Shown here one piece after another: positions 7,253 through 27,022 of a stretch of 64,000 bases of DNA. The stretch covers positions 13,628-77,627 of the forward strand of contig JBGTKD010000192.1 of NCBI GenBank assembly GCA_041744795.1, given 5' to 3'. Below the pieces are notes generated by a model, which was not told where the DNA came from, did no database searches, and saw nothing but the letters and a program-made list of their open reading frames with translations. The translations under genes were made by a program, and so were the position numbers. This DNA comes from Acidimicrobiia bacterium (GTDB lineage: Bacteria > Actinomycetota > Acidimicrobiia > Spongiisociales > ZC4RG35). The stretch's first letter is position 1. Every line of letters starts with the position of its first letter.

Positions 7253-7255
7253 CTC

Positions 7256-10387: not shown

Positions 10388-10460
10388 AGTGTCCAGTCTA
10401 CGCGGTAGCGAAAGTTCTGACGCTTGGAGAGTTGCGCCGCGGGATATCTACGCTGCCAGC

Positions 10461-12477: not shown

Positions 12478-12496
12478 TGGCTATCCTCGCCCACCG

Positions 12497-13689: not shown

Positions 13690-14514
13690 CTAGAGGCTGG
13701 GCAAGAGTTCGTCGAGTAGTAGGCCGAGACGGTCGGCGGCCTGTGCTGCAGCTTCGATGACCTCGTCGGCCGTAATCGGATTGGGCGAGATCCCGGCTGC
13801 CAGGTTCGTGCAGAGGGAGAGTCCGAGTACCTCGGCGCCCATGTGTCGAGCCGCAGTTGCTTCTGGCACGGTGGACATTCCCACCAGCCCTGCTCCGAGC
13901 ATCTTGGCCATTCGGATTTCGGCGGGCGTTTCGAACATGGGGCCATGCCACCAGAGGTAGACGGCCTCTCGGAGTTCCGAGCCGATACGGGCAGCAGCTG
14001 CATGCGCTTTGGCGCGCAACGCGGGCGTGTATACGTCAGTCATGTCAGGAAACTGTGGTCCCAGCCGCTCGTCGTTGGTCCCCATCAGAGGACTGATGCC
14101 TGCCATGTTGATGTGATCGGTGATGAGCACTAGGTCTCCCGCTTCAATCCCATCCCCGCATCCACCGGCCGCGTTCGTGAGGAGCACCTTCCGCGCGCCA
14201 GCCATAATCGCCGTTCGGACCGGGAACGTGACGGTCTCCATGCTGTGACCCTCATACGCATGCGGCCTTCCCGCCAAGAGCAGAACCTTGTTCTCGCCCA
14301 TCCTGACCGAGTAGGCAGTGCCGGAGTGTCCTACCGCCGTTGGGACGGCGAATCCGGGGAGTTCCGCGTATGGAACGGAAATGGCATCGGCGCGAGTGGA
14401 CGGGTAGGTACCAAGTCCGGTCCCGAATACAGCCACAACGTCATGGGTCGCGACCCCCGTCTTCTCGATAAGAATATCGGCGGTGGCACGGAGCCGGTCA
14501 TACAGGCTCGTCAT
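13690..14514 (-). CDS. punA: purine nucleoside phosphorylase, trimeric PunA/MTAP-type
   Basis: VFGTGLG phosphate loop, HAYEG, and MSTVPEA motifs of family-1 trimeric PNPs; 274 aa. Confidence 0.85.
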   Translation of the reverse strand: MTSLYDRLRATADILIEKTGVATHDVVAVFGTGLGTYPSTRADAISVPYAELPGFAVPTAVGHSGTAYSVRMGENKVLLLAGRPHAYEGHSMETVTFPVRTAIMAGARKVLLTNAAGGCGDGIEAGDLVLITDHINMAGISPLMGTNDERLGPQFPDMTDVYTPALRAKAHAAAARIGSELREAVYLWWHGPMFETPAEIRMAKMLGAGLVGMSTVPEATAARHMGAEVLGLSLCTNLAAGISPNPITADEVIEAAAQAADRLGLLLDELLPSL

Positions 14515-15236
14515 GCGATGAGTGCGTTCAGGGCGACCTCGATCATGACTTCGACCGCATCATGGACTACATCTCGATGTGGGTTGTAAATCTCGGCTGT
14601 CGTTCGGAGAGGGTTTCCGTCGACGGTTAGTAGCGCTCCTACTTCGATCCCTTGTAGTGATCCGATTACGAATAGGGCGGCGCACTCCATCTCGACTGCC
14701 ATTGCCCCGGATCGTGCCCACATTGCGAGTGATGAACCGCGAACGTCATGGGGGTAGAAGACCGCTCCGGTGAGCACGAGGCCTTCGTGAACCCGATGGC
14801 CGACGGCCGCCACGCTGCCACGGAGGGCCATAATCACGTCGGCCGATGCCACCGCGGGAAACTCTGGAGGCACTAGACCTGAGGTGAGGCCGTCGTAGCG
14901 GATCGCGCCTGTCGCGATGACGAGGTCCCCATCGGTCACCTCGGGTTGGAGGCCGCCACATGTACCGGCGCGGATGATCTTTGTGGCCCCGGCTTGGTGC
15001 AGTTCCTCGAAACACAACGCCGCTCCCGGCGCTCCGACGCCGTGTGACGAAATGGTCACCGCCACGCCCTTGTACTTCCCCTTGAAAGTCACGTACTCCC
15101 GGAACCGTCCGAGTTCAGTTACCTCCTCGAGACGTGAAGCCACGAGGGCTGCTCTAGCTGGGTCGCCAACCACAAGTGCTCGCTGCGGGATCTCACCAGG
15201 CATGATTCTCAGTATCGGGGTTGGCTCGGACATCAC
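14511..15236 (-). CDS. nucleoside phosphorylase, hexameric DeoD/Udp-type
   Basis: PNP_UDP_1 fold: SSHGVGAPGAALCFEEL...KIIRAGTCGGL and MEMECAALF. The stop overlaps the punA start. Confidence 0.8.
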   Translation of the reverse strand: MMSEPTPILRIMPGEIPQRALVVGDPARAALVASRLEEVTELGRFREYVTFKGKYKGVAVTISSHGVGAPGAALCFEELHQAGATKIIRAGTCGGLQPEVTDGDLVIATGAIRYDGLTSGLVPPEFPAVASADVIMALRGSVAAVGHRVHEGLVLTGAVFYPHDVRGSSLAMWARSGAMAVEMECAALFVIGSLQGIEVGALLTVDGNPLRTTAEIYNPHRDVVHDAVEVMIEVALNALIA

Positions 15237-17203
15237 ACCACCCTCTCGTTTCCGCCGTCGATTGGGATCTGTGCCCCGGTAGTGGCAGCGAATGTATCGC
15301 TACACAGGGCCGCGACAACTTGTCCGACAACTCTGGATGTGACTTCGGTCGAGAGCAGATTGCGCGTTTTGTATTCGTCGACTGTCATCGCGTACTTGGC
15401 CGCTCGTTCAGCCAGCAGCTCGTCGGTCCACAGCCCAGTGTCGAACACCCCATCGGGATGGACGACATTGACACGGATACCGTCATCGGCCCACTCGAGC
15501 GCCGCAACCCGGGCGAGTTGTGTCACCGCTGCCTTTGAGGCCGAATAGGCGGCCGCACCTTTCCCGGGTGCTGGCACGTTCTTCGACCCGACAATCACTA
15601 CACGCCCGCCGACAGGTGAAAGTGCCAGCAGCGGATGCACCGTTGCGAGGAGCATCGCAACGGCGTCGGTGTTCACGGTCTGGACCCTATCCCAGTTCTC
15701 CATGGACAGGCCAGCAACAGGGGTTGTCCGACCGAATATGCCGGCAGCGGAGATCACGAGATCAATTCCTCCGAACCGCTCGACAACCGCGGCGAGCGCC
15801 TTGGATTGGGCGTCGGGATCTGTGACGTCGACCTTCAGACCGAGCCAGGAGGGGCCAGAGAAGGCGGTGATGACCTCCTCGGCAAGGTCGAGGCCCGCGA
15901 CGGCACACCCCCTGGTCATCAGTTCGGCGGCGCATGCCCTGCCGATGCCTGAGGCTGCTCCGGTTACGACAGCCGCCATTCCATTGAACTCGGGCGGGGG
16001 GCCGGACCGACGAAGCTTGGCCTGTTCGAGATCCCAATATTCGCAGTCGAATAGATCGCTGGCGGGAAGGGCTTGGTAGCCCCCAAGGTGGTCTTCGGAT
16101 CGCTCCAACACAGGGATGGTGTGTCGGTAGATGTCGGCTGCAATATCGGCGGCTTTGGCGTTCTCGCCGACTGTGAGTACTCCGAGTTCCGGATTCACGA
16201 CTATCCGCGGAGCGGGATCGAGCATGGTGAGTTGGGTGCGACCGCGGTGTTGGTGGTCGGCAAAATATTGCCGGTAGTCCTCGACAAACTCCTCGACTTC
16301 TTCGCCCACCATTGGCTGGCGCTTGGTTCGGATCACGTGGTCCGGTGTCAGGGGTCCTCGGGTGGCCAAGTCGGCCAGATCCGGTCGATTGACGAAGCGT
16401 CTGACAAGGGCATCGGACATCCGACTCATGACCATCGGCCGCCCCGCTGCTTCGGAGATCTTTCTGCGGAGCCCTGCCAGGCGGGCGGGGTCGACCCGCG
16501 CCAGGGCTTCGCCGCTAGGCGAGGAGGATGGTGCGTGCTGGTCCAGCCATCGCTCTGCCTGCTCGATGAGCTCGACATGACGTTCGTAGGCAGCTCTGGT
16601 CGTGTCACCGAAGGTGAACAGGCCGTGGTTCATCAGCACCATGCCGATCGTGTGGTCGCCTGCCAGGTCCTTCCACATCGTTGACACCGTCTTGGCCAGG
16701 TCGAATCCGGGCATGATGTAGGGGATAACGACCACTGTGTTTCCGTAGACGGTCCGCACCTGATCCATCCCATCGGCAACGTTGGTCAGAGTGACAACCA
16801 CGTCTGCGTGTGAGTGCTGCACGGCAGGATGTGGCAGGAACGCATGCAGCAGGCTTTCCACCGACGGGGCGGGCGCATCCGGGTCGAGCTTGGCGCCAGC
16901 CAACTCGCGCATCATGTCGGGATCCGACAGGGTCTCGAGTTGCAGCAGCTGCTGAAGGCGCGAAAGCCGCAGTGGCGGGAAGCCGGGAGCCTCGATCGAG
17001 CCCAGATCCCAGCCTGATCCCTTCACGTACAGAGCGTCCACTGTGGCGCCGGTGATGTCTTCGAACGGCGCTTTAACGGATGTGTTGCCGCCCCCGTGCA
17101 GTACGAGCGAAGGGTCCGACCCGATCAGCCGAGATCCGTACACGCATTCCCCAAGAGCGCCCGGGAAGCCAGCAGCGTCGGCTTCGTTCCAGCGGCTTTC
17201 CAT
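15233..17203 (-). CDS. bifunctional class II aldolase (rhamnulose-1-P aldolase-like) / short-chain dehydrogenase fusion
   Basis: 656 aa. N-terminal class II aldolase/adducin domain (SVESLLHAFLPHPAVQHSHADVVVTL) and C-terminal SDR domain (AVVTGAASGIGRA Rossmann; YSASKAA catalytic Y-x3-K). Architecture as in YuxG/RhaEW-type fusions. Confidence 0.85.
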   Translation of the reverse strand: MESRWNEADAAGFPGALGECVYGSRLIGSDPSLVLHGGGNTSVKAPFEDITGATVDALYVKGSGWDLGSIEAPGFPPLRLSRLQQLLQLETLSDPDMMRELAGAKLDPDAPAPSVESLLHAFLPHPAVQHSHADVVVTLTNVADGMDQVRTVYGNTVVVIPYIMPGFDLAKTVSTMWKDLAGDHTIGMVLMNHGLFTFGDTTRAAYERHVELIEQAERWLDQHAPSSSPSGEALARVDPARLAGLRRKISEAAGRPMVMSRMSDALVRRFVNRPDLADLATRGPLTPDHVIRTKRQPMVGEEVEEFVEDYRQYFADHQHRGRTQLTMLDPAPRIVVNPELGVLTVGENAKAADIAADIYRHTIPVLERSEDHLGGYQALPASDLFDCEYWDLEQAKLRRSGPPPEFNGMAAVVTGAASGIGRACAAELMTRGCAVAGLDLAEEVITAFSGPSWLGLKVDVTDPDAQSKALAAVVERFGGIDLVISAAGIFGRTTPVAGLSMENWDRVQTVNTDAVAMLLATVHPLLALSPVGGRVVIVGSKNVPAPGKGAAAYSASKAAVTQLARVAALEWADDGIRVNVVHPDGVFDTGLWTDELLAERAAKYAMTVDEYKTRNLLSTEVTSRVVGQVVAALCSDTFAATTGAQIPIDGGNERVV

Positions 17204-17220
17204 CGATCGGTCTCCTTGAT

Positions 17221-18006
17221 TCAGTAGGGGGTGTCGCCGCCATCGACGTTGATTGCCTGACCGCGAATGACGACGGCGGCATCCGAGAGAAGAAACGCAA
17301 CGACCCGGCCCACTTCGATCGGCTGGACCTTGCGGCCGAGTTGGGCGGGACCCATTCCGGCTAAGAGTTCTTCAGAGGGGACGTTCAATCTCGGGGCCAG
17401 CCAATCGGCCACTCCGGCGAGCATCGGCGTATCGACCCCTCCTGGGCAAACGGCGTTGACGTTGATCCAGTCAGCGGCCCACTCCAGAGCGAGCGTACGC
17501 GTGAGGTTGATCACGGCAGCCTTGGAGGCGTTGTAAGCCGCCATGTTCTTGTAGCCGACCTTGCCGCAGTTCGAGGCCACGTTGACGATTGCTCCACCTC
17601 CGGATTCGCGCAGGTGGCGTCCCACTGCCTGGGCCATGACGAAGCTTCCTGTCACGTTGACCGCCAGCTCCCGGTCAAAGGCGTCGGCGGAGGAGTCCCA
17701 CGCCGCGTCAAGGGTCACAATTCCGGCGTTGTTCACGATCCCGTCCAGTCGGCCGAAGTGATCTATTGCCGCCCGGACGCAGGATTCAGCATCGTCGACG
17801 GACACGACGTTGCCTTCGACCGGCAGCGTCCTGTCTCCGTTCGGGTCGGTGCGCTCAGCCACAGCCTGGGCTGGCTTGAGGCGCAAATCGAAGAGGACGA
17901 CCCGCCCGCCCTGTTCGAGAATCGCCGCGGTCACTCCCTCGCCGATTCCCCCGCCAGCACCTGTCACGATGTAGGAACGGTCTTGCAGGTCCATCCGGGT
18001 TACCAC
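17221..18006 (-). CDS. SDR family oxidoreductase
   Basis: TGAGGGIGEG Rossmann motif, NNAG, and YNASKAA catalytic triad region. Confidence 0.8.
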   Translation of the reverse strand: MVTRMDLQDRSYIVTGAGGGIGEGVTAAILEQGGRVVLFDLRLKPAQAVAERTDPNGDRTLPVEGNVVSVDDAESCVRAAIDHFGRLDGIVNNAGIVTLDAAWDSSADAFDRELAVNVTGSFVMAQAVGRHLRESGGGAIVNVASNCGKVGYKNMAAYNASKAAVINLTRTLALEWAADWINVNAVCPGGVDTPMLAGVADWLAPRLNVPSEELLAGMGPAQLGRKVQPIEVGRVVAFLLSDAAVVIRGQAINVDGGDTPY

Positions 18007-18752
18007 GTAGTGCTCGTGAGGACGCCGCCGTCGACCACCAGGTCAATGCCTGTAATCCAACGCGAGAGCTCCGAACAAAGGAACACGCAGGCATCGCCGA
18101 CATCTTCGGGGGTACCCAAGCGGCTAAGTGGAGCTGCGGCCCGCCACCGTCCAATGCCTTCGGGCCATTGTTCTTCGATTCCGGGCCGGGCGATCAGACC
18201 AGGCGAGACCGAATTCACCCTGACCCCATGCGGTCCCCAGGCCAACGCTGCTGCCCTGGCGTGCATGACGAGCCCTGCCTTAGACACCGCATAGTGGCCG
18301 TGGACCGGTGTGGGATGGCGCGCCTCGATCGAAGCGATGTGCACGATCGAACCCCCGCCCGACTCCTTCATGGCGCGTGCAGCAGCCTGCGTGAGTAGAT
18401 GGGTGGCGGTGAGGTTTACATCGATCATTTCGGTCCACTCCTCCTCGGTGAGATCGACGAAAGGTACGACCGGTTGGATACCAGCATTGTTGACGAGCGC
18501 GTCGATCCGTCCGTGTGCTGCGACGGTGGCGCCAATCACTGCTTGGGCGCTCCCCGGATTGGCGAGGTCGGTTGACAGCACTGTTACCCCAGGTTCGTCG
18601 ACCGACGAGGTGCGAGTGACTGCGACCACCGTGGCTCCTGTGGCCGCCATACGCTGCACGATTCCAGCGCCGATACCCCCGCCTGCGCCGGTGACCACGG
18701 CCACCTTGCCGGTCAGATCCAGCATCTCGGCGGGCGTGACGATGTCGGTCAT
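18000..18752 (-). CDS. SDR family oxidoreductase
   Basis: Start ATG 18752 (MTDIVTPAEMLDLTGKVAVVTGAGGGIGAG) with an AGGAAG RBS, NNAG, and YAVSKAG. The ORF-track start at 18914 is an Arg-rich extension. Confidence 0.8.
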   Translation of the reverse strand: MTDIVTPAEMLDLTGKVAVVTGAGGGIGAGIVQRMAATGATVVAVTRTSSVDEPGVTVLSTDLANPGSAQAVIGATVAAHGRIDALVNNAGIQPVVPFVDLTEEEWTEMIDVNLTATHLLTQAAARAMKESGGGSIVHIASIEARHPTPVHGHYAVSKAGLVMHARAAALAWGPHGVRVNSVSPGLIARPGIEEQWPEGIGRWRAAAPLSRLGTPEDVGDACVFLCSELSRWITGIDLVVDGGVLTSTTW

Positions 18753-19204
18753 GGATCTTCCTTTCGGATGAATCGGGCAATGTCGGCTGCGGCGTCCGGG
18801 TGGGACATAGTCAATTGTGAAGCGACGCCTAGTTCGAATCCGTCCGGGTCGAATGGCGGGGCCATCGTTGTACCGACGAGCGACCAGTCGCCCGTCGTTG
18901 CTGCTCCCATCCACACTCCGGCTTCGACACCGACAAACGGGCGTTGACCGGAGGCGAGGTCGTCACCGAGTAGAGGACGCCGTGTTTCGCCGCTTGGATC
19001 CAAGAGGAGCATTTCCACCGGAGCCCCGGCGTAGTGGTGCCAGAGCTCGGCGATATTCAGCCTATGCATCGCGGAGAAGTCGCCCGGTCGGAGTAGGAAG
19101 TAGATGCCGGACCCGTGATCGTCACGCCAGGTCTGGCGCCACTTGCCTCCTTCCACGGGCATGGTGCCCAGTCCCAGCAACGAGATGACGTCCTCTGATG
19201 TCAT
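18749..19204 (-). CDS. cupin-fold protein (DUF985-like)
   Basis: 151 aa. GIYFLL...HRL..AELWHHYAGAP pattern typical of DUF985 cupins. Translationally coupled to neighbours. Confidence 0.55.
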   Translation of the reverse strand: MTSEDVISLLGLGTMPVEGGKWRQTWRDDHGSGIYFLLRPGDFSAMHRLNIAELWHHYAGAPVEMLLLDPSGETRRPLLGDDLASGQRPFVGVEAGVWMGAATTGDWSLVGTTMAPPFDPDGFELGVASQLTMSHPDAAADIARFIRKEDP

Positions 19205-20502
19205 GGGATAAGTCGCGCAGCCCGCTGATCGAGCTCTCGGATGGCCTCGTCGGTGTCGATCGTCGTCACTTTGGCGTCGTCGACGACCTGTCGTCCCGCC
19301 ACCCAGACCGAGCGGACTGCGCTCGGCGAACCTGACCAGACCACCCTCGACACCGGATCATCTTCGTCCTGGATCACCGGATGGAAGCTCCCCACATCGG
19401 CCAGCGCCACCATGTCTGCCTGCGCCCCCGCCGTCAGTCGCCCGAGGTCGGGACGACCGATGGCTTCGCCGGCTCCGCCGGTAGTCATCCACAGAGCTCG
19501 CGAAGTTGGAAAACATTGGGCGTCCTGATGACGCAGGCGCGCCAGGCGAATGGCGGTGCGCATCTCCTCGAACAAATCGAGGCGATGATGGGAGGCAGGT
19601 CCGTCTGTTGCGATCCCGATCTTGATCCCCGCCGCTCTCATCTCTTCGACCCGGGCGATCCCGGAGGCATGCTTGGAATTCGAGCATGGACAGTGGGCCA
19701 CAGACACTCGATTCTGGCCGAAGACGGCAATGTCATCATCCGTCAGCCACACGCCGTGGGCAGCCAGAGCTCGGCCCTCGAGCAAGCCGAGGGACTCGAG
19801 GTATGCGGGAGCAGACATTCCTGTCTTCTCCCGGACAGCAGCGTCCTCCCATTCCTGTTCGGCGACATGGATATGAACGAGCATGTCCGCCTCATTGGCG
19901 ACCTCGGCCAGCCTGCTCAGGCATTTGTCGCTGACCGACCAGGCAGCGTGAGGACCCAAACCGATTTCTACGAGGGCGTTCGAAGACCAGCGCTCGCGCA
20001 TGGCCAGCATTTCTTCGACTTGCTCCTGCCAGTGCCCGAAGGCAGAGAGCGCGGGGTCTTCGATGATCGGTGCGGTGACGACGGTGCGTAGCCCTGTTTC
20101 CGAAGCACCCTCGGCGACGGCTTGGCCGTGAAAGTACATTTCGACGGTTGTCGTGATGCCATTGCCCAGGAGCTCGATTGCTCCGGCTCGCATGCCAGCT
20201 CGTACATCGTCAGGGGTGAGTTTTGCTTCGCGAGGCCACATGACTTCGTGCAACCAGCGATCAACAGGTAGGCCTTCGCCCGCGCCTCGTAACAGAACCA
20301 TCGGTGTGTGGCAGTGGATGTTGACCATGCCGGGCATCAGCAACCCGTCGATATGGTGGACGGTTGCTCGGGTGTCCGGCGCGTCGCTCAGTGGTCCGGA
20401 CCATACGACGGTGCCCTCATCGACGTCGACGGCTCCTTGAAAGATTGGCTCGGCATCCTCGTCGGCCATCGTGAGAAGGACATCGGCGACGAAGCGATCC
20501 AC
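19201..20502 (-). CDS. amidohydrolase, MTA/SAH (or nucleobase) deaminase-like
   Basis: 433 aa. Metal-binding HxH (NIHCHTPM), with downstream H and D (TDGPASHH...D) as in the ATZ/TRZ–MtaD–guanine deaminase family. Specificity is not determinable from sequence. Confidence 0.75.
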   Translation of the reverse strand: MDRFVADVLLTMADEDAEPIFQGAVDVDEGTVVWSGPLSDAPDTRATVHHIDGLLMPGMVNIHCHTPMVLLRGAGEGLPVDRWLHEVMWPREAKLTPDDVRAGMRAGAIELLGNGITTTVEMYFHGQAVAEGASETGLRTVVTAPIIEDPALSAFGHWQEQVEEMLAMRERWSSNALVEIGLGPHAAWSVSDKCLSRLAEVANEADMLVHIHVAEQEWEDAAVREKTGMSAPAYLESLGLLEGRALAAHGVWLTDDDIAVFGQNRVSVAHCPCSNSKHASGIARVEEMRAAGIKIGIATDGPASHHRLDLFEEMRTAIRLARLRHQDAQCFPTSRALWMTTGGAGEAIGRPDLGRLTAGAQADMVALADVGSFHPVIQDEDDPVSRVVWSGSPSAVRSVWVAGRQVVDDAKVTTIDTDEAIRELDQRAARLIP

Positions 20503-20566
20503 TTGCGAACCTCCGGGTTGTCAGACAAGCTACTGGTAGCATGATTGGGCTGTCAATCGAGGACAC

Positions 20567-21295: not shown

Positions 21296-21383
21296 CCGGT
21301 TGCGTATGGATTCTGTTGACGACATACCGCTCCCTCACCTAGCCTCGGATCCGAGCTTGTCTGACAACCCGGAAGGCCTGGAA

Positions 21384-22445
21384 ATGGATCGACTCGGCGA
21401 CCGATCGCTCGACTGGATCGATGATGCCGTTGTGCTGGTCGATCAGACTCGGTTGCCGGGAACCTTCGAGACGCTTCGCATCGAGGACGTACCTTCAATG
21501 GTCGCCGCGATCCGCAGGCTGTCGGTGCGGGGTGCTCCCGCGATCGGGGTGGCGGGCGCTTTCGGTGTCGCTCTCGCCTTTCGTCAGTATGGCGATACCG
21601 GTGACGAGTTCGAAACGGCAGTGGCTTCCTTGCGCGACGCTCGACCGACTGCCGTCAACTTGGCTCGGATGGTTGACCGTTGCGCCGCAGTCGCCCCTGA
21701 AGGATTTGACCGAGTCCTCGCGGAGGCATGCGCGATACGAGACGAGGAGCTGGCGGCGTCCATCGCGATGGGCGAATTGGGTGCCGATCTCGTGGAAGAG
21801 ATGTCGGACGAGATCCCGACCACGGTGATGACGATCTGTAACACAGGTGGGCTCGCCACCGTCGAGCGCGGCACAGCCCTGGCCGTAATCCAGACACTTC
21901 ATGAGCGCGGCGAGCTGCGGGAGGCACTTGCCCTGGAGACGCGCCCGTTGCTTCAGGGGGCTCGCCTTACGACCTGGGAGCTCGCCAGGATGGGCGCACC
22001 GCACCGCTTGGTGGTCGATTCGGCAGGGCCCTTCCTCCTCGCCCGGGGAGCGGCCCAAGTCGTTCTCACGGGAGCGGACCGCATTGCTGCAAACGGCGAC
22101 ACCGCAAACAAGATCGGCACCTACGCCTTAGCTCTGGGCGCGGCCCGCGCCGGAGTGCCGTTCATAGTCGTAGCTCCTGAGACCACGGTCGACATGGCGA
22201 CCAGCCACGGGAGTGACATCGAAATCGAAGATCGGGGTGCGTCTGAGGTCGTCTCGATCGCCGGAGTCGCAATCGCGCCTTCGGGCACATCTGCTGTGAA
22301 CCCGGCTTTCGATGTGACACCCGCCGACTTGATCACGGCCATCGTGACCGACCGGCGCGTTATCAGGCTTGACAAGGGAGATACCCCCGAGACGGTGCCA
22401 CTCGGTTCGCTGGCAGGAATGTATAGGAAAGAGAGGAAGAGCTGA
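21384..22445 (+). CDS. mtnA: S-methyl-5-thioribose-1-phosphate isomerase (eIF2B-like sugar-phosphate isomerase)
   Basis: LVDQTRLP N-terminus, GAPAIGVAGAFG, CNTGGLAT, and GADRIAANGDTANKIGTY motifs. GGAAGG RBS before ATG 21384. 353 aa. Confidence 0.85.
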   Translation: MDRLGDRSLDWIDDAVVLVDQTRLPGTFETLRIEDVPSMVAAIRRLSVRGAPAIGVAGAFGVALAFRQYGDTGDEFETAVASLRDARPTAVNLARMVDRCAAVAPEGFDRVLAEACAIRDEELAASIAMGELGADLVEEMSDEIPTTVMTICNTGGLATVERGTALAVIQTLHERGELREALALETRPLLQGARLTTWELARMGAPHRLVVDSAGPFLLARGAAQVVLTGADRIAANGDTANKIGTYALALGAARAGVPFIVVAPETTVDMATSHGSDIEIEDRGASEVVSIAGVAIAPSGTSAVNPAFDVTPADLITAIVTDRRVIRLDKGDTPETVPLGSLAGMYRKERKS

Positions 22446-23470
22446 TGAAACGAAATCTTCGATGGAGCGTGCCACTGCTGGCGCTGGCGATGGTCCTGGC
22501 GGCCTGCGGAGGTTCGGATGACGTAGTCGACGAGCCCGATGGGCCTACCTTTATTTACGTCACGCCTAACCCGATCGGTGTGAACAAGTTTCTCGAACTT
22601 GGCCAGGTCGGCACTCAGCGTGCTGCGGAGAAGCTCGGTGGTACCTGGAGGACTTTCGAGTCGACCGATGACTCCAGCCGACGGGCGAACATCGAAGCAG
22701 CCGTCGACGCCGCCCCCGACGTGATTGTCCTCACAACCTTCACTCTGGTCGAGCTGGCCGACGAGTTCTCGAAAGCCAACCCCGACCAGGAGTTCATCCT
22801 GATCGACACTTGCCCGGAGGCGCCCGCCCCCAACTTGCACTGTGGAGTGTTCAGGGAGCAGGAAGGTGCGTATCTGCTGGGGATCATGGCCGGGCATCTG
22901 AGCGAGTCGAAGCAGGTTGGTTCGGTAGGCGCTCTCGACATCCCGTTCCTGCATCGTTACACGGATAGCTTTGCTCTCGGTGCCCAGTCGGTGGATCCTT
23001 CGATCACCGACACCCAAGTGTGGATCGGTGGTGACAATCCGTTCTCCGATCCGGCGCGGGCAAAGGAACAGGCTCTGGCTGTCGCGGCTCAGGGTTCGGA
23101 TCACATATTCGCGGTCGGAGCCGGATCGAACGGCGGGATCTTCGAGGCCGCTGTCCAACAGGGATTCTTCAGCTACGGCGTAGACGTGAATCAGTGCCCG
23201 GATGCACCCGGCAGCATTGTCGATAGCAACATGAAGCTGGTGGATGTGCTCGTCGAACAGCTCATCGACCAGATCCTGGCGGGAACGGCCGGATCTGTGG
23301 TCTCCTTCGGCTTGGCCGAGGGTGGAACCGGGGTCATGGCACTGTCCGACGATCTGGCTGGCAGCCAGTGTGTGATCGCCGAGCATCCTGACGTGGTGGA
23401 GGCGGTTAAGGCAGCAGCCCAGGGAATTATCGATGGGTCCATCGTTGTTCCTGACCCACTGTTCGGCTGA
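22445..23470 (+). CDS. BMP-family (PnrA/Med-like) ABC substrate-binding lipoprotein, probable nucleoside binder
   Basis: Signal plus lipobox (LAACGG) and a periplasmic-binding fold typical of basic membrane protein family nucleoside receptors. Confidence 0.8.
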   Translation: MKRNLRWSVPLLALAMVLAACGGSDDVVDEPDGPTFIYVTPNPIGVNKFLELGQVGTQRAAEKLGGTWRTFESTDDSSRRANIEAAVDAAPDVIVLTTFTLVELADEFSKANPDQEFILIDTCPEAPAPNLHCGVFREQEGAYLLGIMAGHLSESKQVGSVGALDIPFLHRYTDSFALGAQSVDPSITDTQVWIGGDNPFSDPARAKEQALAVAAQGSDHIFAVGAGSNGGIFEAAVQQGFFSYGVDVNQCPDAPGSIVDSNMKLVDVLVEQLIDQILAGTAGSVVSFGLAEGGTGVMALSDDLAGSQCVIAEHPDVVEAVKAAAQGIIDGSIVVPDPLFG

Positions 23471-23479
23471 ACACACCGG

Positions 23480-25003
23480 ATGACAATCGAGCTGGAACTC
23501 CGCGGCGTCACCAAGCGGTTCCCCGGCGTCGTCGCCAACGACGCCGTAGACCTCACGGTGCGCGCCGGGGAGGTCCACGCCGTCGTTGGCGAGAACGGGG
23601 CAGGCAAGACCACACTGATGTCGATCCTTTACGGGTTGTTTCCCCCGGATGAGGGCGCGATCCTCATCCGGGGCGAACCCGTTAACTTCTCGTCTGCGCT
23701 CGATGCGATCAATGCCGGGCTAGGCATGGTCCACCAGGCGTTCAAGCTCTTCCCCACCCTCACAGTCGCAGAGAATGTGGTGTTCCGCTCCGAGCCGACC
23801 CGGAGAGGGATGATCGACAGGGCGGCCAGTGTGGCCCGAGTGCGGGAGTTGGCCGAGAGGTATGGACTGGCTGTGGACCCCATAGCCACAGTCGAGAGCC
23901 TCCCTGTCGGAGTGCTACAGCGGGTCGAGATCCTCAAAGCGCTCTACCGCGACGCCCAGATCTTGATCCTCGACGAACCGACCGCGGTCCTCACCCCTCA
24001 AGAGCGGGACATGCTCTTCGACATCATCCACCGACTCAAGGATTCGGGCCGCACGATCCTATTCATCACCCACAAGCTGGGTGAGGTGATGGCTGTCTCG
24101 GACCGAGTCACCGTCTTGCGTAACGGCCGGTCTGTCGCCGAGCTCGTTACCGACCAGACGACACCTGCGGAGATCACGCGTCACATGGTCGGTCGGGACC
24201 TCGACCTGACAAAGAGAGCGTTGCCTCATTCCGCTGGAGCTGTCGTTCTATCCGTTGAGGAGTTGGCCGCGATCGGTGAACACGATCGGGTGGTGGTCGA
24301 GGATGTGACCTTTGTCGTGCGTTCCGGCGAGATAGTCGGAGTGGCCGGTGTGGCGGGCAACGGTCAATCGGAGATGATCGAGGCTGTGACGGGTTTGCGG
24401 CCGGTTGAGAGTGGCTCTATCCATCTCGACGGTGTCGACATCACAGAGGCAGATGTGGCTTCGCGGCGGCGCCGGGGGCTGGCGTACATCCCCGAGGACC
24501 GTCATGGCGTGGGGACGACCCACCATGGGACAGTGTCAGAGAACCTTCTGCTCGGTCATCATCGCGAGGAAGGCATCGAGCGCCGAGGTTGGTTTGCTCT
24601 GGACGAAATCCAGCGCCGAGCCGAGAGCCTTATCGAACGTTTCGGGATAAAGACCCCCTCGGTGTCTACCCGGGTGTCGACGCTCTCCGGAGGAAACCTC
24701 CAGAAGCTCGTTGTCGCGAGGGAACTCGCCTACGACGCCCCGCTGTTGATCGCGGAACAGCCAACCCGCGGGGTCGACATCGGGGCGATCCAGTTCATCC
24801 ATCGCCAACTGCTCGACTACCGGGACGCGGGAGGGGCCGTTTTGATGGTTTCTGCCGAACTCTCCGAGATCCTGGCGCTCAGCACACGAATACTGGTCAT
24901 GTTCGAGGGCCGGATTGTCGCCGAACTCGACCCTGCTGCGGTCGACGAACCACAGATCGGCCGTTACATGACAGGATCGCACTTGGACGCCGCCCGTGCG
25001 TGA
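23480..25003 (+). CDS. ABC transporter ATP-binding protein with two nucleotide-binding domains
   Basis: Two Walker A motifs (GENGAGKTT; GVAGNGQSE) and two LSGG signatures; 507 aa. Confidence 0.9.
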   Translation: MTIELELRGVTKRFPGVVANDAVDLTVRAGEVHAVVGENGAGKTTLMSILYGLFPPDEGAILIRGEPVNFSSALDAINAGLGMVHQAFKLFPTLTVAENVVFRSEPTRRGMIDRAASVARVRELAERYGLAVDPIATVESLPVGVLQRVEILKALYRDAQILILDEPTAVLTPQERDMLFDIIHRLKDSGRTILFITHKLGEVMAVSDRVTVLRNGRSVAELVTDQTTPAEITRHMVGRDLDLTKRALPHSAGAVVLSVEELAAIGEHDRVVVEDVTFVVRSGEIVGVAGVAGNGQSEMIEAVTGLRPVESGSIHLDGVDITEADVASRRRRGLAYIPEDRHGVGTTHHGTVSENLLLGHHREEGIERRGWFALDEIQRRAESLIERFGIKTPSVSTRVSTLSGGNLQKLVVARELAYDAPLLIAEQPTRGVDIGAIQFIHRQLLDYRDAGGAVLMVSAELSEILALSTRILVMFEGRIVAELDPAAVDEPQIGRYMTGSHLDAARA

Positions 25004-26102
25004 GTTGGTCGACCGCCGGCGCCTCGGCGGTTGGGCGCGCAGGGTGGCCGTCAGCCCTGTGACTTTCTCGATTGTGCTCGCGTTCGGGGTGGGGGCCGCC
25101 ATCGTCGCTCTCACCGGCCAGGACCCGTTCGTCGCGTATCGGGAGATGTTCGTTGGGGCGGTCAGCGGGTCAGGGTTGCGCAACACTCTCGCCCGGTCGA
25201 TCCCCATCATCGGAATGGCACTGGCGGTCTCGGTCGCCTTCCGTGCCGGAGTCATCAACCTGGGTGGCGAGGGTCAGATGGTTGTGGGCGGTTTGGCCGG
25301 GACGGTGGTGGCGATATACACCCCGGGTCCCGGCGCGTTTGTCATTCCGCTTGCGCTCTTGGCTGGAGCGGCGGCGGGTGCGGCTTGGGCGCTCTTGCCC
25401 GCCTTCGGACAGACCAAGCTCGCCCTTCCGATTCTGATCACGAGCCTGCTCCTGAACTACGTGGGTAGGGCGATCACCGGATACATGGTGCGGTTCCCGC
25501 TGGCAGACGTTTCGGTGACTCTGGCCACGACGAGGCAGGTTCCCGAGACGGCCAGGATGCCGAAGATGCCCGTTTTCGGGGGTGTGAGCCTGTCGCTTGT
25601 TCTCGTCGTGGTCCTTGTCGTGGCCCTGGGTGTCGTGTATTCGCGAAGTGTCGTCGGATACGAGACTCGGATGGCCGGTTACAGCGGTCGTTTCGCCCGC
25701 TACGGCGGCGTGGCGGTTGAGCGCCAGACGCTCGGCGTGATGGCGGTCGCCGGAGCGATCGGCGGTGTGATCGGCACCCATCTCATAATCGGTGACGCGT
25801 TGCGGTTCATCGAAGGTGAACTCGTCCTCAGTGGCTTGGCCTGGACTGGTCTTCTCGTTTCGCTTCTGGCGGCGAATCGGCCCGTCTTCATCCTCTTGGC
25901 CGGCCTCTTGTTCTCGGGGCTGCAGATCGGTGGCCTCGCCATGCAGAGGAATGCTGACATTTCCTGGAGGCTCGCCCAGGTGCTCCAGGCTCTCGTCATC
26001 ATTGCGGTTGCCAGTCGCCTCAGCCTTCGCAGGCGCGCCAAACGCAAGGATGTTGCGGTGGAAGAGGTGACGGCCGAACCGGCTCGGGTGGGTGAGATCT
26101 GA
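24996..26102 (+). CDS. ABC transporter permease (BPD inner-membrane component)
   Basis: Polytopic hydrophobic protein. It overlaps the ATPase stop. Type matches the BMP/sugar systems. Confidence 0.8.
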   Translation: MRELVDRRRLGGWARRVAVSPVTFSIVLAFGVGAAIVALTGQDPFVAYREMFVGAVSGSGLRNTLARSIPIIGMALAVSVAFRAGVINLGGEGQMVVGGLAGTVVAIYTPGPGAFVIPLALLAGAAAGAAWALLPAFGQTKLALPILITSLLLNYVGRAITGYMVRFPLADVSVTLATTRQVPETARMPKMPVFGGVSLSLVLVVVLVVALGVVYSRSVVGYETRMAGYSGRFARYGGVAVERQTLGVMAVAGAIGGVIGTHLIIGDALRFIEGELVLSGLAWTGLLVSLLAANRPVFILLAGLLFSGLQIGGLAMQRNADISWRLAQVLQALVIIAVASRLSLRRRAKRKDVAVEEVTAEPARVGEI

Positions 26103-27022
26103 TGTTTGAACAGCTTTTCGACTCCGCCCTGCTCGACTCGGCGGTCCGCGCCATGATCCCGATCCTTCTCGCCGCACTGGGTGGGATGATCTGTGAGAGG
26201 GCGGGCGTGTTCCAGATCTCGCTCGAGGGAATGATGGTGGCTGGGGCATTTGCCGCCGTCGCCGGGTCCTACTTTGCGCAGAGTTCCTCTATGGGAATCG
26301 TTTTCGCGATCGGCGCGGGTGTGGCGGTGTCGCTGATCCTTGCCTACGGCGCGGTTACGCGAAGAGGCGATCCGATCGTTCTCGGCATTGCCATCAACCT
26401 TTTCGCGTTCGGGATCACCGGGTTTCTCCTGCCTCAGATCTTTGGCGTCCGCGGGGTGTTTCAACATCCCCGCATCGACGGTCTTGATCGCATTCCCATC
26501 CCGTTCCTCTCCGACATTCCGGTCGTGGGACCGGTGTTGTTCTCGAACACCGCCACCGCCTACCTCGCTTTTCTCCTCGTGCCGGGACTGTGGTTCTTCC
26601 TCTTTCGGACTCCGATTGGCTTGCGGCTGCGCGGGGTGGGCGAACGTCCGGCGGCGGCCGAGACACTCGGTGTCTCCGCCACCCAGTACAAGTACATGGC
26701 AGTGATCGCCTCCGGGGTTCTCTCGGGTCTCGCCGGCGCTCAACTGGCGCTGGGCAATGTCGTCCAGTTCGCCGAGAATATGTCCAGTGGCCGTGGCTGG
26801 GTTGCGGTTGTGGCCGTCATGTTGGGTCGGGCTCACCCGGTCGGTGTACTGGGAGCGAGTCTGCTGTTTGCCTTCGCTGAAGCACTCGGTTTCCGGTTCC
26901 AGGGCAACGGCCTACCTGTTCAGATCACCGACGCTCTGCCGTTCGTAGTGACGCTGCTTGCGCTGGTCATCGCGCGCAAGAGGTTCTCGCGCCTCCTCGA
27001 CCTCACCACCGCCTCCACCTAG
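26102..27022 (+). CDS. ABC transporter permease (second subunit)
   Basis: Polytopic protein. Translationally coupled (ATGA overlap). Confidence 0.8.
   Translation: MFEQLFDSALLDSAVRAMIPILLAALGGMICERAGVFQISLEGMMVAGAFAAVAGSYFAQSSSMGIVFAIGAGVAVSLILAYGAVTRRGDPIVLGIAINLFAFGITGFLLPQIFGVRGVFQHPRIDGLDRIPIPFLSDIPVVGPVLFSNTATAYLAFLLVPGLWFFLFRTPIGLRLRGVGERPAAAETLGVSATQYKYMAVIASGVLSGLAGAQLALGNVVQFAENMSSGRGWVAVVAVMLGRAHPVGVLGASLLFAFAEALGFRFQGNGLPVQITDALPFVVTLLALVIARKRFSRLLDLTTAST

What the first reader, a model, noticed from the sequence alone, without database searches (positions are those of the whole stretch)
13690..27022. Candidate non-canonical MTA/5'-deoxyadenosine salvage cluster (a DHAP-shunt-like pathway) built around a class-II-aldolase::SDR fusion
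A 13-kb block brings together several functions that fit one pathway. These are a BMP-family nucleoside-type ABC importer (22445-27022), an MtaD-like amidohydrolase (19201-20502), a PunA/MTAP-type and a DeoD-type nucleoside phosphorylase (13690-15236), an MtnA-type sugar-1-phosphate isomerase (21384-22445), and a 656-aa fusion of a rhamnulose/fuculose-1-P-type class II aldolase to a short-chain dehydrogenase (15233-17203). Two further SDRs, a cupin and a divergently transcribed GntR/HutC regulator are also present. No mtnK, mtnB, mtnC or mtnD and no RuBisCO-like enolase is present, so the full methionine-salvage pathway is not encoded here. In a shunt-type route, MTA or 5'-dAdo would be deaminated, phosphorolysed, isomerised to a ketose-1-phosphate, and cleaved by a class II aldolase into DHAP plus an aldehyde. 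The aldehyde would then be reduced by an alcohol dehydrogenase. Here the aldolase and a reductase are fused in one polypeptide, a combination usually annotated as rhamnose catabolism (YuxG/RhaEW-like). There is no rhamnose isomerase or kinase in the window, so this is more likely a different, possibly undescribed use of that fusion.
Basis: partly seen in the sequence, partly recalled or inferred. Interest (0 to 1): 0.75.

Follow-up and report, generated by a model that had tools for sequence, protein, structure and literature searches.

The report
MTA/5'-deoxyadenosine breakdown cluster, new aldolase
This 13-gene Acidimicrobiia cluster most likely imports and breaks down the S-adenosylmethionine by-products methylthioadenosine and 5'-deoxyadenosine, using a fused aldolase-dehydrogenase, so far known only from rhamnose catabolism, in place of the usual pathway aldolase.

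Summary
In detail: all 13 genes are at the stated coordinates. They form two divergent, translationally coupled operons. The same unit recurs in at least 8 other Acidimicrobiia genomes with different flanks.

- The fusion belongs to NCBIfam NF006196, not to the rhamnose RhaEW models. It is 33% identical to a rhizobial RhaD that sits among rha genes, and no rha genes flank it in 80 loci.
- MtnA lies beside NF006196 fusions in 41 of 80 loci across five phyla. In Gallionellaceae-type loci the order is fusion-MtnP-Apt-MtnA, the make-up of a DHAP shunt.
- The amidohydrolase is closest to MTA/SAH deaminases.
- A marine sister cluster has a methylthioinosine phosphorylase in the phosphorylase slot.
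- Both window phosphorylases lack the histidine that binds the ribose 5'-OH.
- A palindrome, TTGTC(A/T)GACAA, occurs only in loci that have the GntR gene and is the likely operator.

Corrections: entry is by deaminase plus PNP rather than MTAP, and the fused SDR more probably oxidises the aldehyde, as RhaW does. Cupin_5 and one SDR are constant partners whose role is unexplained. Nothing has been tested biochemically. I found no paper describing this arrangement.

The parts
13690..14514 (-). PunA-type (trimeric) purine nucleoside phosphorylase. It lacks the histidine that binds the ribose 5'-OH (Ala249 instead).
   Evidence: NF006054 320 bits, cutoff 218; MTAP model 79 bits, cutoff 275. Nearest solved structure is M. 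tuberculosis PNP: its 'LSHAEV' aligns with window 'ITADEV'. Cluster orthologs have Gly, Gly, Ala and Ser at this position. Among 118 diverse PunA representatives, 91 have His.
14511..15236 (-). Hexameric NP-I family phosphorylase, most like Plasmodium PNP and Streptococcus uridine phosphorylase. Candidate 5'-methylthioinosine / 5'-deoxyinosine phosphorylase.
   Evidence: Pfam PNP_UDP_1. It is below every NCBIfam cutoff. PDB matches: 3QPB 2e-42, P. falciparum PNP 4e-40, S. solfataricus MTAP 5e-29. It aligns to PfPNP without gaps and lacks the insertion specific to uridine phosphorylases. The position of PfPNP His7 is Ile, Val or Leu in all 7 orthologs. That His7 contacts the 5'-OH is from my knowledge of the PfPNP literature.
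15233..17203 (-). 656-aa fusion of a RhaE-type class II aldolase (about 1-222), a middle domain (about 225-400) and a classical NAD-type SDR (about 405-656). Proposed MTRu-1-P / 5-dRu-1-P aldolase plus aldehyde dehydrogenase.
   Evidence: NF006196 955 bits, cutoff 831; RhaEW models below cutoff. Zn ligands His130/His132/His193, Glu116, GxxxGxG, Asp439 and Ser540/Tyr553/Lys557 are each conserved in at least 79 of the 80 sequences. AlphaFold model pLDDT 78.7; best fold match 3M4R, a class II aldolase domain, TM 0.92. MtnA is a neighbour in 41 of 80 loci.
17221..18006 (-). SDR2, a classical short-chain dehydrogenase. A variable accessory with unassigned role.
   Evidence: Pfam adh_short. Best NCBIfam match is the glucose 1-dehydrogenase subfamily, 212 bits, just under the cutoff of 215. 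Absent from variants L086 and L091.
18000..18752 (-). SDR1, a classical short-chain dehydrogenase. A constant partner in Actinomycetota clusters, with unassigned role.
   Evidence: Pfam adh_short_C2. PDB matches are generic SDRs. Present in all Acidimicrobiia variants, including L086 and L091. The start was refined from the 304-aa ORF because the domain begins at residue 70.
18749..19204 (-). Cupin_5 (DUF985) protein. A constant partner in Actinomycetota clusters, function unknown.
   Evidence: PF06172 109 bits. No NCBIfam match. PDB matches 1ZNP and 1YUD are 'hypothetical protein'. It is linked to MtnA and the fusion in rearranged orders in L013, L019, L086 and L091.
19201..20502 (-). MtaD-like amidohydrolase. 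Proposed MTA / 5'-deoxyadenosine deaminase that yields the inosine analogues.
   Evidence: Nearest solved structures: 4F0R, an MTA/SAH deaminase (9e-65); 4DYK/4GBD (2e-63; I recall these as P. aeruginosa MTA deaminase PA3170, but the tool labels them only 'AMIDOHYDROLASE' and 'Putative uncharacterized protein'); and Tm0936 (2e-43). Guanine deaminases reach only 1e-22. It is below all NCBIfam equivalog cutoffs.
20518..20528 (.). Perfect palindrome TTGTCAGACAA, predicted GntR/HutC operator O1, in the divergent promoter region. It is followed directly by a second perfect palindrome, GCTACTGGTAGC (20529-20540).
   Evidence: Read from the sequence. It overlaps the only sigma-70-like site in the cluster, TTGTCA-16-CATGAT at 20518-20545. 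TTGTC[AT]GACAA occurs 8 times in 1.53 Mb of held DNA, against about 0.7 expected. All 8 sites lie in non-coding DNA beside cluster genes, in the four sequences that carry the GntR homolog.
20567..21295 (+). GntR/HutC-family regulator (winged helix plus UTRA effector domain).
   Evidence: Pfam GntR 65 bits and UTRA 50 bits. Homologs of 54-63% identity sit beside MtnA and the fusion in L004, L009 and L025.
21357..21367 (.). Second copy of the palindrome (TTGTCTGACAA), predicted operator O2, 17 bases upstream of the mtnA start.
   Evidence: It has the same 11-base motif as the sites in L004, L009 and L025.
21384..22445 (+). [quoted passage not shown]
   Evidence: TIGR00512 361 bits, cutoff 279. 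R15P isomerase model 140 bits, cutoff 314. PDB 1T9K 9e-71, 2YVK 2e-61. The CNtG and GADR motifs are kept.
22445..23470 (+). Bmp/PnrA-family substrate-binding lipoprotein of the ABC importer.
   Evidence: PF02608 124 bits. PDB relatives are the BMP-family binding proteins TmpC (2FQW), BmpD, BmpA and the atrazine periplasmic binding protein 6PI5; that several of these bind purines or nucleosides is my recollection. Ligand specificity was not determined.
23480..25003 (+). ABC ATPase with two ATP-binding cassettes.
   Evidence: PF00005, two stretches, 175 bits.
24996..26102 (+). ABC permease 1 (BPD_transp_2).
   Evidence: PF02653 84 bits.
26102..27022 (+). ABC permease 2 (BPD_transp_2).
   Evidence: PF02653 134 bits.

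Best explanation
The block is a regulated catabolic/salvage module for the 5'-deoxy-type adenosines made from S-adenosylmethionine: 5'-methylthioadenosine and 5'-deoxyadenosine. It is a variant of the DHAP shunt.

Proposed steps, all inferred from homology and gene context:
1. The Bmp-type ABC system imports the nucleoside.
2. The MtaD-like amidohydrolase deaminates it to 5'-methylthioinosine or 5'-deoxyinosine.
3. The Plasmodium-PNP-like enzyme and the PunA-like enzyme phosphorolyse it to hypoxanthine plus 5-methylthioribose-1-P or 5-deoxyribose-1-P.
4. MtnA isomerises this to the ribulose-1-phosphate.
5. The class II aldolase domain of the fusion cleaves it to DHAP plus 2-(methylthio)acetaldehyde or acetaldehyde.
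6. The fused NAD-type SDR domain immediately converts the reactive aldehyde. By analogy with RhaW this is most probably oxidation to the acid; reduction to the alcohol is the alternative.

The GntR/HutC repressor binds TTGTC(A/T)GACAA at both promoters and would be released by a pathway intermediate. Cupin_5 and SDR1 are constant partners in Actinomycetota, and SDR2 is variable. Their step is unknown.

The fusion family NF006196 acts as a non-orthologous replacement for the Ald2/DrdA aldolase.
For: - Family assignment: the window fusion and the MtnA/MtnP-linked fusions from Proteobacteria, cyanobacteria and Actinomycetes all pass NF006196 and fail the RhaEW models. True RhaD does the reverse.
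- Context: MtnA is present in 41 of 80 NF006196 loci and directly adjacent in 25, across Actinomycetota, Beta- and Gammaproteobacteria, Verrucomicrobiota and Cyanobacteria.
- Six loci have fusion-MtnP(-Apt)-MtnA. MtnP scores 499 bits against a cutoff of 437, and Apt 283 against 170.
- The marine sister cluster L086-L088 carries a methylthioinosine phosphorylase in the phosphorylase slot (NF006599 235 bits, cutoff 223), next to the same deaminase, MtnA, cupin, SDR and fusion.
- The deaminase is nearest to solved MTA/SAH deaminases.
- The second phosphorylase is nearest to P. falciparum PNP, which from my knowledge acts on both inosine and methylthioinosine.
- The histidine that contacts the 5'-OH is replaced in both phosphorylases and in all their cluster orthologs.
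- Catalytic residues of both fusion domains are intact.
- RhaEW precedent: aldolase plus NAD+-dependent aldehyde oxidation in one polypeptide (PMC3870299).
- The operator motif is found only in GntR-bearing loci, at the promoters of cluster genes.
- Known parallel: the E. coli DHAP shunt supports growth on 5'-deoxynucleosides (PMC10986504).
Against: - There are no biochemical or genetic data for any NF006196 member.
- The window phosphorylases do not pass the MTAP or MTIP models.
- The deaminase passes no equivalog cutoff.
- About 23% of diverse PunA representatives also lack the histidine, so that substitution is suggestive and not diagnostic.
- RhaE-type aldolases act on a (3R,4S) ketose-1-P, whereas MtnA products are (3R,4R). 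Stereospecificity must therefore have changed (established carbohydrate chemistry; not testable here).
- A simple shunt does not need Cupin_5 plus one or two extra SDRs. Their constant presence in Actinomycetota means part of the chemistry is missing from this model.
- Half of the family's loci show no MtnA nearby (dispersed genes or short contigs).
- The binding protein's ligand is unknown.
Confidence: 0.6

Rival explanations
1. General ribonucleoside catabolism that bypasses the pentose phosphate pathway. Imported adenosine, inosine or guanosine is phosphorolysed to ribose-1-P. The MtnA homolog isomerises this to ribulose-1-P. The fusion cleaves it to DHAP plus glycolaldehyde and oxidises glycolaldehyde to glycolate.
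For: - The Bmp-family importer and PunA-family PNP are typical of ordinary nucleoside uptake.
- No phosphopentomutase is present in the cluster.
- Haloarchaea cleave ribulose-1-P with a class II aldolase in nucleoside catabolism (PMC9700705).
- The review PMC6302742 cites a study proposing a ribose pathway through B. subtilis methionine-salvage enzymes.
Against: - Both phosphorylases have lost the histidine that binds the 5'-OH.
- The sister cluster uses a methylthioinosine phosphorylase.
- The same fusion family is operonic with MtnP and Apt in chemolithoautotrophic Gallionellaceae, where nucleoside feeding is unlikely.
- The deaminase is nearest to MTA/SAH deaminases.
- Variants without an importer exist (L091).
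Confidence: 0.12
2. Catabolism of a different modified nucleoside, for example an S-adenosylhomocysteine derivative, a halogenated or other 5'-substituted adenosine, or a nucleoside with an unusual sugar configuration. Cupin_5 and the free SDRs would remodel the sugar or the side chain before or after the MtnA and aldolase steps.
For: - Cupin_5 plus SDR1 are constant in Actinomycetota clusters and are unexplained by a plain shunt.
- JGI labels some homologs 'predicted cupin superfamily sugar epimerase'.
- MtaD-family deaminases also take SAH (molecule names).
- A PNP-isomerase-aldolase route exists for 5'-fluoro-5'-deoxyadenosine in Streptomyces (PMC6302742).
Against: - The MtnA-fusion pair works without the cupin and extra SDRs in other phyla.
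- The MtnP/Apt and MTIP contexts point to MTA-type substrates.
- No halogenase, SAH hydrolase or sugar-modifying genes are present in the window.
Confidence: 0.2
3. An L-rhamnose (or other 6-deoxyhexose) catabolic enzyme of the RhaEW/YuxG type that happens to lie next to nucleoside genes.
For: JGI annotation of homologs reads 'rhamnose utilization protein RhaD'. The domain architecture is shared with RhaEW.
Against: - The fusion is below the cutoff on both rhamnose models, and 33% identical to RhaD of R. johnstonii, which sits among rhaI, rhaS, rhaM and a kinase gene.
- No rhaA/rhaI or rhaB/rhaK lies near any of 80 family members or in the window.
Confidence: 0.02

Closest known systems
DHAP shunt (MtnP or MtnN+MtnK, MtnA, Ald2/DrdA) of Rhodospirillum rubrum, extraintestinal E. 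coli and Bacillus thuringiensis
   Same: The logic is the same: a 5'-deoxy-type nucleoside becomes a pentose-1-P, MtnA makes the ketose-1-P, and a class II aldolase yields DHAP plus a C2 aldehyde. A true MtnA is present. In related loci MtnP and Apt are in the operon. As in E. coli, the module can serve growth on outside nucleosides and is repressor-controlled.
   Different: - The aldolase is not an Ald2/DrdA/FucA-like protein. It is a RhaE-type domain that is only weakly similar to MtnB (19 bits).
- It is fused to an SDR that handles the aldehyde within the same polypeptide.
- Entry is through deaminase plus PNP rather than MtnP or MtnN/MtnK.
- There is a dedicated Bmp ABC importer, a GntR rather than an MtnR regulator, and additional Cupin_5 and SDR genes.
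RhaEW / YuxG bifunctional L-rhamnulose-1-P aldolase / L-lactaldehyde dehydrogenase (TIGR02632, NF006189)
   Same: The three-part architecture, the Zn-binding histidines, and the SDR catalytic residues and NAD-type Asp are shared. It probably uses the same coupling of aldol cleavage to aldehyde oxidation.
   Different: It is a different NCBIfam equivalog (NF006196) at about 33% identity. It is never next to rha genes and is instead linked to mtnA. The presumed substrate is a 5-deoxy or 5-methylthio pentulose-1-P of opposite C4 configuration.
MTA deaminase plus methylthioinosine phosphorylase route (Pseudomonas aeruginosa PA3170/PA3004; Plasmodium ADA/PNP; Methanocaldococcus DadD/MTIP)
   Same: Deamination comes before phosphorolysis, so hypoxanthine rather than adenine is released. 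The deaminase is closest to 4F0R and to 4DYK/4GBD (PA3170 by my recollection). One phosphorylase is closest to PfPNP. A sister cluster has an MTIP-family enzyme.
   Different: In those organisms the enzymes are not clustered with MtnA and an aldolase. Here the window phosphorylases are PunA-like and PfPNP-like rather than MTIP-family.
Non-carboxylating pentose bisphosphate pathway of haloarchaea
   Same: [quoted passage not shown]
   Different: That pathway needs ribose-1-P kinase, ribose-1,5-bisphosphate isomerase and RuBP phosphatase. None is present here, and the isomerase is MtnA rather than R15P isomerase (140 bits, cutoff 314).

Membership tests
NCBIfam NF006196 (PRK08324.2-4) bifunctional aldolase/short-chain dehydrogenase | Full-length score at or above the curated cutoff of 831 bits | tested here: met
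   955 bits over residues 1-656. MtnA/MtnP-linked relatives score 981-1212 bits.
RhaEW / YuxG rhamnulose-1-P aldolase::lactaldehyde dehydrogenase (TIGR02632, NF006189) | Score above the equivalog cutoff (567.75 and 634 bits) | tested here: not met
   433 and 417 bits. True RhaD (L081) scores 1195 and 1291 bits.
RhaEW / YuxG rhamnulose-1-P aldolase::lactaldehyde dehydrogenase (TIGR02632, NF006189) | Encoded within an rha locus (isomerase, kinase, rhamnose transporter), as PMC3870299 states for all orthologs | tested here: not met
   No such neighbours in the window or in the neighbour clusters of 80 loci. This contrasts with L081.
DHAP shunt | MtnA isomerase | tested here: met
   TIGR00512 361 bits, cutoff 279. 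Catalytic motifs are kept.
DHAP shunt | MtnP, or MtnN plus MtnK, producing 5-substituted ribose-1-P | tested here: not met
   No MTAP-model pass (79 bits, cutoff 275) and no kinase in the window. A deaminase plus PNP pair is present instead. Related loci do carry MtnP or MTIP.
DHAP shunt | Ald2/DrdA-type (FucA-like, about 210 aa) class II aldolase | tested here: not met
   The aldolase domain matches only the fusion-family models. The nearest canonical model is MtnB at 18.7 bits. The best fold match is 3M4R.
DHAP shunt | Conversion of MTRu-1-P or 5-dRu-1-P to DHAP plus aldehyde | not testable with these tools
   This needs an enzyme assay.
Canonical methionine salvage pathway | MtnB dehydratase, MtnC/W/X enolase-phosphatase, MtnD dioxygenase | tested here: not met
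   None was found among the window ORFs scanned. The rest of the genome was not seen.
MTA/SAH/5'-deoxyadenosine deaminase (MtaD/DadD) | Score above an equivalog cutoff, or nearest characterised relative is such a deaminase | tested here: inconclusive
   Below the NCBIfam cutoffs (for example 5'-dAdo deaminase 249 bits, cutoff 522). However, the top solved relatives include MTA/SAH deaminases (4F0R 9e-65, Tm0936), and guanine deaminase reaches only 1e-22.
Non-carboxylating pentose bisphosphate pathway | Ribose-1,5-bisphosphate isomerase | tested here: not met
   TIGR00511 140 bits, cutoff 314.
GntR/HutC regulators | N-terminal GntR winged helix plus C-terminal UTRA domain | tested here: met
   PF00392 65 bits and PF07702 50 bits.

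The most novel reading that the evidence does not exclude
The NF006196 aldolase::SDR family is the unrecognised third enzyme of the DHAP shunt in the many bacteria that have mtnP/mtnA, or deaminase plus PNP plus mtnA, but no Ald2, DrdA or MtnB. It cleaves the ketose-1-P and detoxifies the aldehyde in one polypeptide. These bacteria include cyanobacteria, for which a 2021 study concluded that 'another pathway of 5dAdo salvage' must exist. In Actinomycetota the invariant Cupin_5 plus SDR partners would add a so far unknown step, for instance processing of the methylthio-C2 product for sulfur recovery.
Probability: 0.35. Interest if true: 0.75.

Novelty: new variant of a known kind. Interest (0 to 1): 0.62.

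Why it matters
5'-Deoxyadenosine and methylthioadenosine are unavoidable, inhibitory by-products of radical-SAM, polyamine and quorum-signal chemistry. How many bacteria dispose of them is still open. Rapp et al. (PMC8102628) found cyanobacteria with only mtnP and mtnA and no Ald2, and concluded that another route must exist.

If the prediction holds, a very large protein family gains a function. At least 8000 database clusters are now named only 'bifunctional aldolase/short-chain dehydrogenase', or wrongly 'rhamnose utilization protein RhaD'. The DHAP shunt would extend to Actinomycetota, cyanobacteria, iron- and sulfur-oxidising Proteobacteria and Verrucomicrobiota.

It would also show that marine, soil and sponge-associated Acidimicrobiia carry a dedicated, regulated importer-linked module for using these nucleosides as carbon, and possibly sulfur, sources. 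Finally, it gives DUF985 cupins their first conserved metabolic context.

Tried and rejected
- Rhamnose reading: rejected on model scores, identity and context.
- Pentose bisphosphate reading: rejected because the isomerase is MtnA and no kinase or phosphatase is present.
- Exact look-up of the window fusion (P0001) in the contig index found nothing.
- The first structure job failed. The second succeeded but only confirmed the aldolase and SDR folds. There is no solved full-length relative, and the middle domain stays unassigned.
- PDB and NCBIfam searches for SDR1, SDR2 and the cupin gave only generic or 'hypothetical' matches. A full-text search for DUF985 gave no biochemical function.
- The search for cupin homologs returned only close Acidimicrobiia relatives, so no independent context for DUF985 was obtained beyond cluster variants.
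- Cyanobacterial context (Crocosphaera subtropica) is monocistronic and uninformative. Two further homologs (L090, L092) also stand alone.
- The histidine-loss argument for PunA was tested against 118 diverse representatives. Because 27 also lack His, it is supportive only.
- The short motif TGTC.GACA occurs at chance frequency in coding DNA. Only the extended 11-base palindrome with a central A or T is specific.
- In the neighbour-joining tree, L050 fell among the outgroups, probably because of a broken ORF. I ignored it.
- Literature searches combining the fusion (RhaEW, YuxG, short-chain dehydrogenase) with MTA, 5-deoxyribose or mtnA terms found no paper linking them. The North et al. 2020 DHAP-shunt paper could not be read.

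Full report
**The observation**

The window has 61-66% G+C, and its closest relatives are Acidimicrobiia. Between 13690 and 27022 there are two divergent gene sets.

On the minus strand, from 20502 down to 13690:
- an amidohydrolase (433 aa);
- a Cupin_5/DUF985 protein (151 aa);
- two classical SDRs (250 and 261 aa);
- a 656-aa Aldolase_II::SDR fusion;
- an NP-I family phosphorylase (241 aa);
- a PunA-type purine nucleoside phosphorylase (274 aa).

On the plus strand, from 20567 to 27022:
- a GntR/UTRA regulator;
- MtnA;
- a Bmp substrate-binding protein;
- a double-cassette ABC ATPase;
- two permeases.

Junctions inside each set overlap by 1-8 bases or leave at most 17 bases, apart from 88 bases between gntR and mtnA. 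The sets therefore read as operons. The only refinement is that the first free SDR starts near 18752, not at the start of the mechanical ORF at 18914.

The remaining larger ORFs of the window that matched a Pfam family encode unrelated functions. These include NAD synthase, MgtE, cytochrome oxidase, Lgt, HrpB, a STAND adenylate cyclase and ABC exporters. None is a methionine-salvage, rhamnose or RuBisCO-like gene.

**Is it a unit?**

Yes. A scan of one genome per species with a profile of the fusion returned 80 loci. Comparing all 13 window proteins against them showed the same gene set in L001, L002, L008, L009, L011 and L012, and partly in L003, L013 and L019.

A 3.76-Mb Acidimicrobiia genome (L085) has exactly the 12 non-regulator genes in the same order. 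They sit between a LysR gene and a methyltransferase gene, which fixes the boundaries.

Reduced versions also exist:
- a marine TARA version with MtnA, an ABC ATPase, two permeases and one phosphorylase, opposite cupin-SDR-fusion-amidohydrolase (L086-L088);
- a version without an importer: MtnA opposite amidohydrolase-cupin-SDR-fusion-PunA (L091);
- a minimal MtnA / fusion-GntR version in sponge-associated genomes (L004, L025).

**What the fusion is**

It scores 955 bits on NCBIfam NF006196 (cutoff 831). It is below the cutoff on the two rhamnose models: TIGR02632 at 433 against 568, and NF006189 at 417 against 634.

As a control I fetched the RhaD fusion of Rhizobium johnstonii 3841 pRL11. 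It sits between rhaI, rhaS, rhaM, a DeoR regulator and an FGGY kinase. It scores 1291 and 1195 bits on the rhamnose models but only 412 on NF006196, and it is 33% identical to the window protein.

Two other subfamilies lie in other sugar-kinase contexts and also fail NF006196. One is from Shinella, next to an lsrF-like gene. The other is from Rhizobium K102.

Fusions from a Gallionellaceae-type locus, Crocosphaera, another cyanobacterium and Saccharothrix all pass NF006196, with 981-1212 bits.

The key residues are each kept in at least 79 of 80 family members:
- aldolase: Zn ligands His130, His132 and His193, plus Glu116;
- SDR: GxxxGxG, the NAD-type Asp439, and Ser540, Tyr553 and Lys557.

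An AlphaFold model (pLDDT 78.7) matches the orphan class II aldolase domain 3M4R (TM 0.92) and generic SDRs. No full-length structure is known.

The N-terminal domain is very far from canonical FucA, Ald2 or MtnB proteins: 64 bits on Pfam Aldolase_II and 19 bits on the MtnB model. A joint tree with those clades would therefore say little. This is a separate lineage.

**What travels with the fusion**

I clustered all ORFs within 6 kb of the 80 fusions. The only widely shared neighbour was MtnA. It is present in 41 loci and directly adjacent in 25. These loci are spread over the whole family tree: Acidimicrobiia, Actinomycetes (Saccharothrix, Micromonospora, Longispora), Burkholderiales, Gallionellaceae, Nitrosomonadaceae, Chthoniobacter and a cyanobacterium.

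In six Gallionellaceae or betaproteobacterial loci the operon also holds MtnP (NF006492, 499 bits against 437). In five it holds adenine phosphoribosyltransferase. MtnP plus MtnA plus an aldolase is the definition of the DHAP shunt, and Apt recycles the adenine that MtnP releases. No rhamnose isomerase or kinase cluster appeared.

**The entry steps in the window**

The amidohydrolase's closest solved relatives are 4F0R, named 5-methylthioadenosine/S-adenosylhomocysteine deaminase (9e-65), then 4DYK/4GBD (2e-63) and Tm0936. I recall 4DYK/4GBD as the P. aeruginosa MTA deaminase PA3170. Guanine deaminases reach only 1e-22.

The 241-aa phosphorylase is closest to S. pyogenes uridine phosphorylase and to P. 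falciparum PNP. It aligns without gaps to PfPNP and lacks the insertion specific to uridine phosphorylases. The hexameric S. solfataricus MTAP is also a clear match. From my knowledge of that literature, PfPNP acts on both inosine and 5'-methylthioinosine.

In the TARA sister cluster the phosphorylase slot is filled by a different protein. It passes the S-methyl-5'-thioinosine phosphorylase model (NF006599, 235 bits against 223).

This matches the deaminase-then-phosphorylase route that I recall from P. aeruginosa, Plasmodium and M. jannaschii.

Both window phosphorylases have lost the histidine that hydrogen-bonds the ribose 5'-OH.
- In PunA, the 'LSHAEV' of M. tuberculosis PNP aligns with 'ITADEV'. 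The four cluster orthologs have Gly, Gly, Ala and Ser.
- In the PfPNP-like enzyme, the position of His7 is Ile, Val or Leu in all seven orthologs.

The PunA substitution is not unique: 27 of 118 diverse representatives also lack His. I count it as support, not proof.

MtnA passes its equivalog model and keeps the catalytic Cys and Asp motifs.

**Mechanism proposed**

The proposed route is:
1. import of the nucleoside;
2. deamination to the inosine analogue;
3. phosphorolysis to hypoxanthine plus 5-methylthio- or 5-deoxy-ribose-1-P;
4. isomerisation by MtnA;
5. aldol cleavage to DHAP plus 2-(methylthio)acetaldehyde or acetaldehyde;
6. immediate conversion of the aldehyde by the fused SDR.

The only characterised relatives, RhaEW of Chloroflexus and Bacillus, oxidise lactaldehyde to lactate with NAD+. 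For the Chloroflexus enzyme no reaction with NADH was seen, and without NAD+ neither DHAP nor lactate formed (PMC3870299). The NAD-type Asp is conserved here. I therefore favour oxidation to acetate or methylthioacetate, but this is inference.

One chemical caveat applies. Rhamnulose-1-P is (3R,4S), whereas MtnA products are (3R,4R). The NF006196 lineage must therefore have a different stereopreference from RhaE.

**Regulation**

The 64-base gap between the amidohydrolase and gntR holds two abutting perfect palindromes: TTGTCAGACAA (20518-20528) and GCTACTGGTAGC (20529-20540). Both overlap the only sigma-70-like match in the 14-kb region. A second TTGTCTGACAA lies 17 bases upstream of mtnA (21357-21367).

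Across the 1.53 Mb of sequence held, TTGTC[AT]GACAA occurs eight times, against about 0.7 expected. The sites are two each in the window, L004, L025 and L009. These are exactly the four sequences that carry the GntR homolog. In every case the sites lie between or just upstream of cluster genes. The promoter regions of five related loci without the regulator, which I checked, lack the motif. This is a phylogenetic footprint of the operator.

**What is not explained**

Cupin_5 and one SDR accompany MtnA and the fusion in every Acidimicrobiia variant, even without an importer. In L013 and L019 the cupin, and at least one SDR-like match, lie next to MtnA and the fusion in different orders. They are absent from the proteobacterial and cyanobacterial loci.

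Neither has an informative relative. A plain shunt does not need them. The model is therefore incomplete for Actinomycetota, and a modified substrate or an extra step remains possible. One example would be handling of the methylthio-C2 product.

**Rivals**

- Ordinary ribonucleoside catabolism through ribulose-1-P and glycolaldehyde is chemically feasible. It is disfavoured by the MTIP sister cluster, the MtnP/Apt operons in autotrophs, the affinities of the deaminase and the lost 5'-OH contacts.
- The rhamnose reading is contradicted.
- The pentose bisphosphate pathway lacks its defining enzymes here.

**Novelty**

The DHAP shunt, the deaminase/MTIP route and RhaEW are each known. Their combination appears in none of the papers I could search or read. 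The combination is a RhaE-type aldolase::SDR as the shunt aldolase, linked to MtnA across phyla, with an importer and a GntR regulon in Acidimicrobiia.

Rapp et al. state that cyanobacteria with only mtnP and mtnA and no Ald2 'must employ another pathway'. NF006196 proteins are common in cyanobacteria, and one lies next to MtnA (L036). I could not check the specific strains of that study.

**Verdict**

The finding is a well-supported but purely computational prediction of a new variant of a known pathway. It assigns a function to a large protein family that currently has only a generic or wrong name.

Noticed in passing
window 15320-15330: A third near-copy of the operator palindrome (TTGTCCGACAA, central C) lies inside the 3' end of the fusion gene, about 85 bases upstream of the start of the next gene (14511-15236). 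It could be an internal operator or chance, because the central-C/G form is common in coding DNA.
   Followed up: partly
L028, L034, L044, L046, L052, L063, L068, L073, L074, L080: In Burkholderiales-type loci a GNAT acetyltransferase (about 148 aa, 9 loci) lies directly upstream of the fusion, often preceded by a 254-aa protein with no NCBIfam match (7 loci). MtnA follows in most of these loci. Their role is unknown.
   Followed up: partly
L082 (Shinella plasmid p1) 7053-16991: A sister subfamily of the fusion (45% identity; NF006196 722 bits, below the cutoff) sits between an lsrF-like thiolase/aldolase, a sugar ABC transporter, an FGGY kinase and a glycerol-3-P dehydrogenase. This looks like another uncharacterised ketose-phosphate pathway.
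   Followed up: no
L084 (S. meliloti 1021 pSymB) 7001-8239: An aldolase-only homolog covers the first 398 residues of the fusion at 39% identity and has no SDR domain. It is unannotated in the PLSDB table.
   Followed up: no
window 27097-27852 (-): An amidinotransferase/DDAH-like gene (Pfam ADI, 44 bits) lies directly downstream of the importer operon on the opposite strand. It is not conserved next to the cluster in L085.
   Followed up: partly
window 45030-48686 (+): A 1218-aa protein combines a double zinc ribbon, an adenylate/guanylate cyclase domain, an AAA_16 (STAND) ATPase and TPR repeats.
   Followed up: no
window 10317-13627 (+): Three consecutive ORFs (196, 462 and 436 aa) have no Pfam match. 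They look like a lipoprotein with a Thr/Ser-rich linker and two polytopic membrane proteins. They are unrelated to the cluster in other genomes.
   Followed up: partly
window 21015-22445 and 22121-23578(-): Long mechanical ORFs arise from the high G+C content. One is a 476-aa upstream extension of mtnA that overlaps gntR. Another is a 485-aa antisense ORF across mtnA and bmp. In the locus comparison, antisense shadow ORFs of the fusion and of MtnA formed large spurious 'families'.
   Followed up: yes
(PunA representatives P0121-P0270): About a quarter of diverse PunA-family representatives carry Gly, Ala, Glu, Ile, Val or Ser in place of the histidine that binds the 5'-OH. They may mark a broader, unrecognised group of 5'-modified-nucleoside phosphorylases. 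Their gene contexts could not be looked up with the tools allowed.
   Followed up: no
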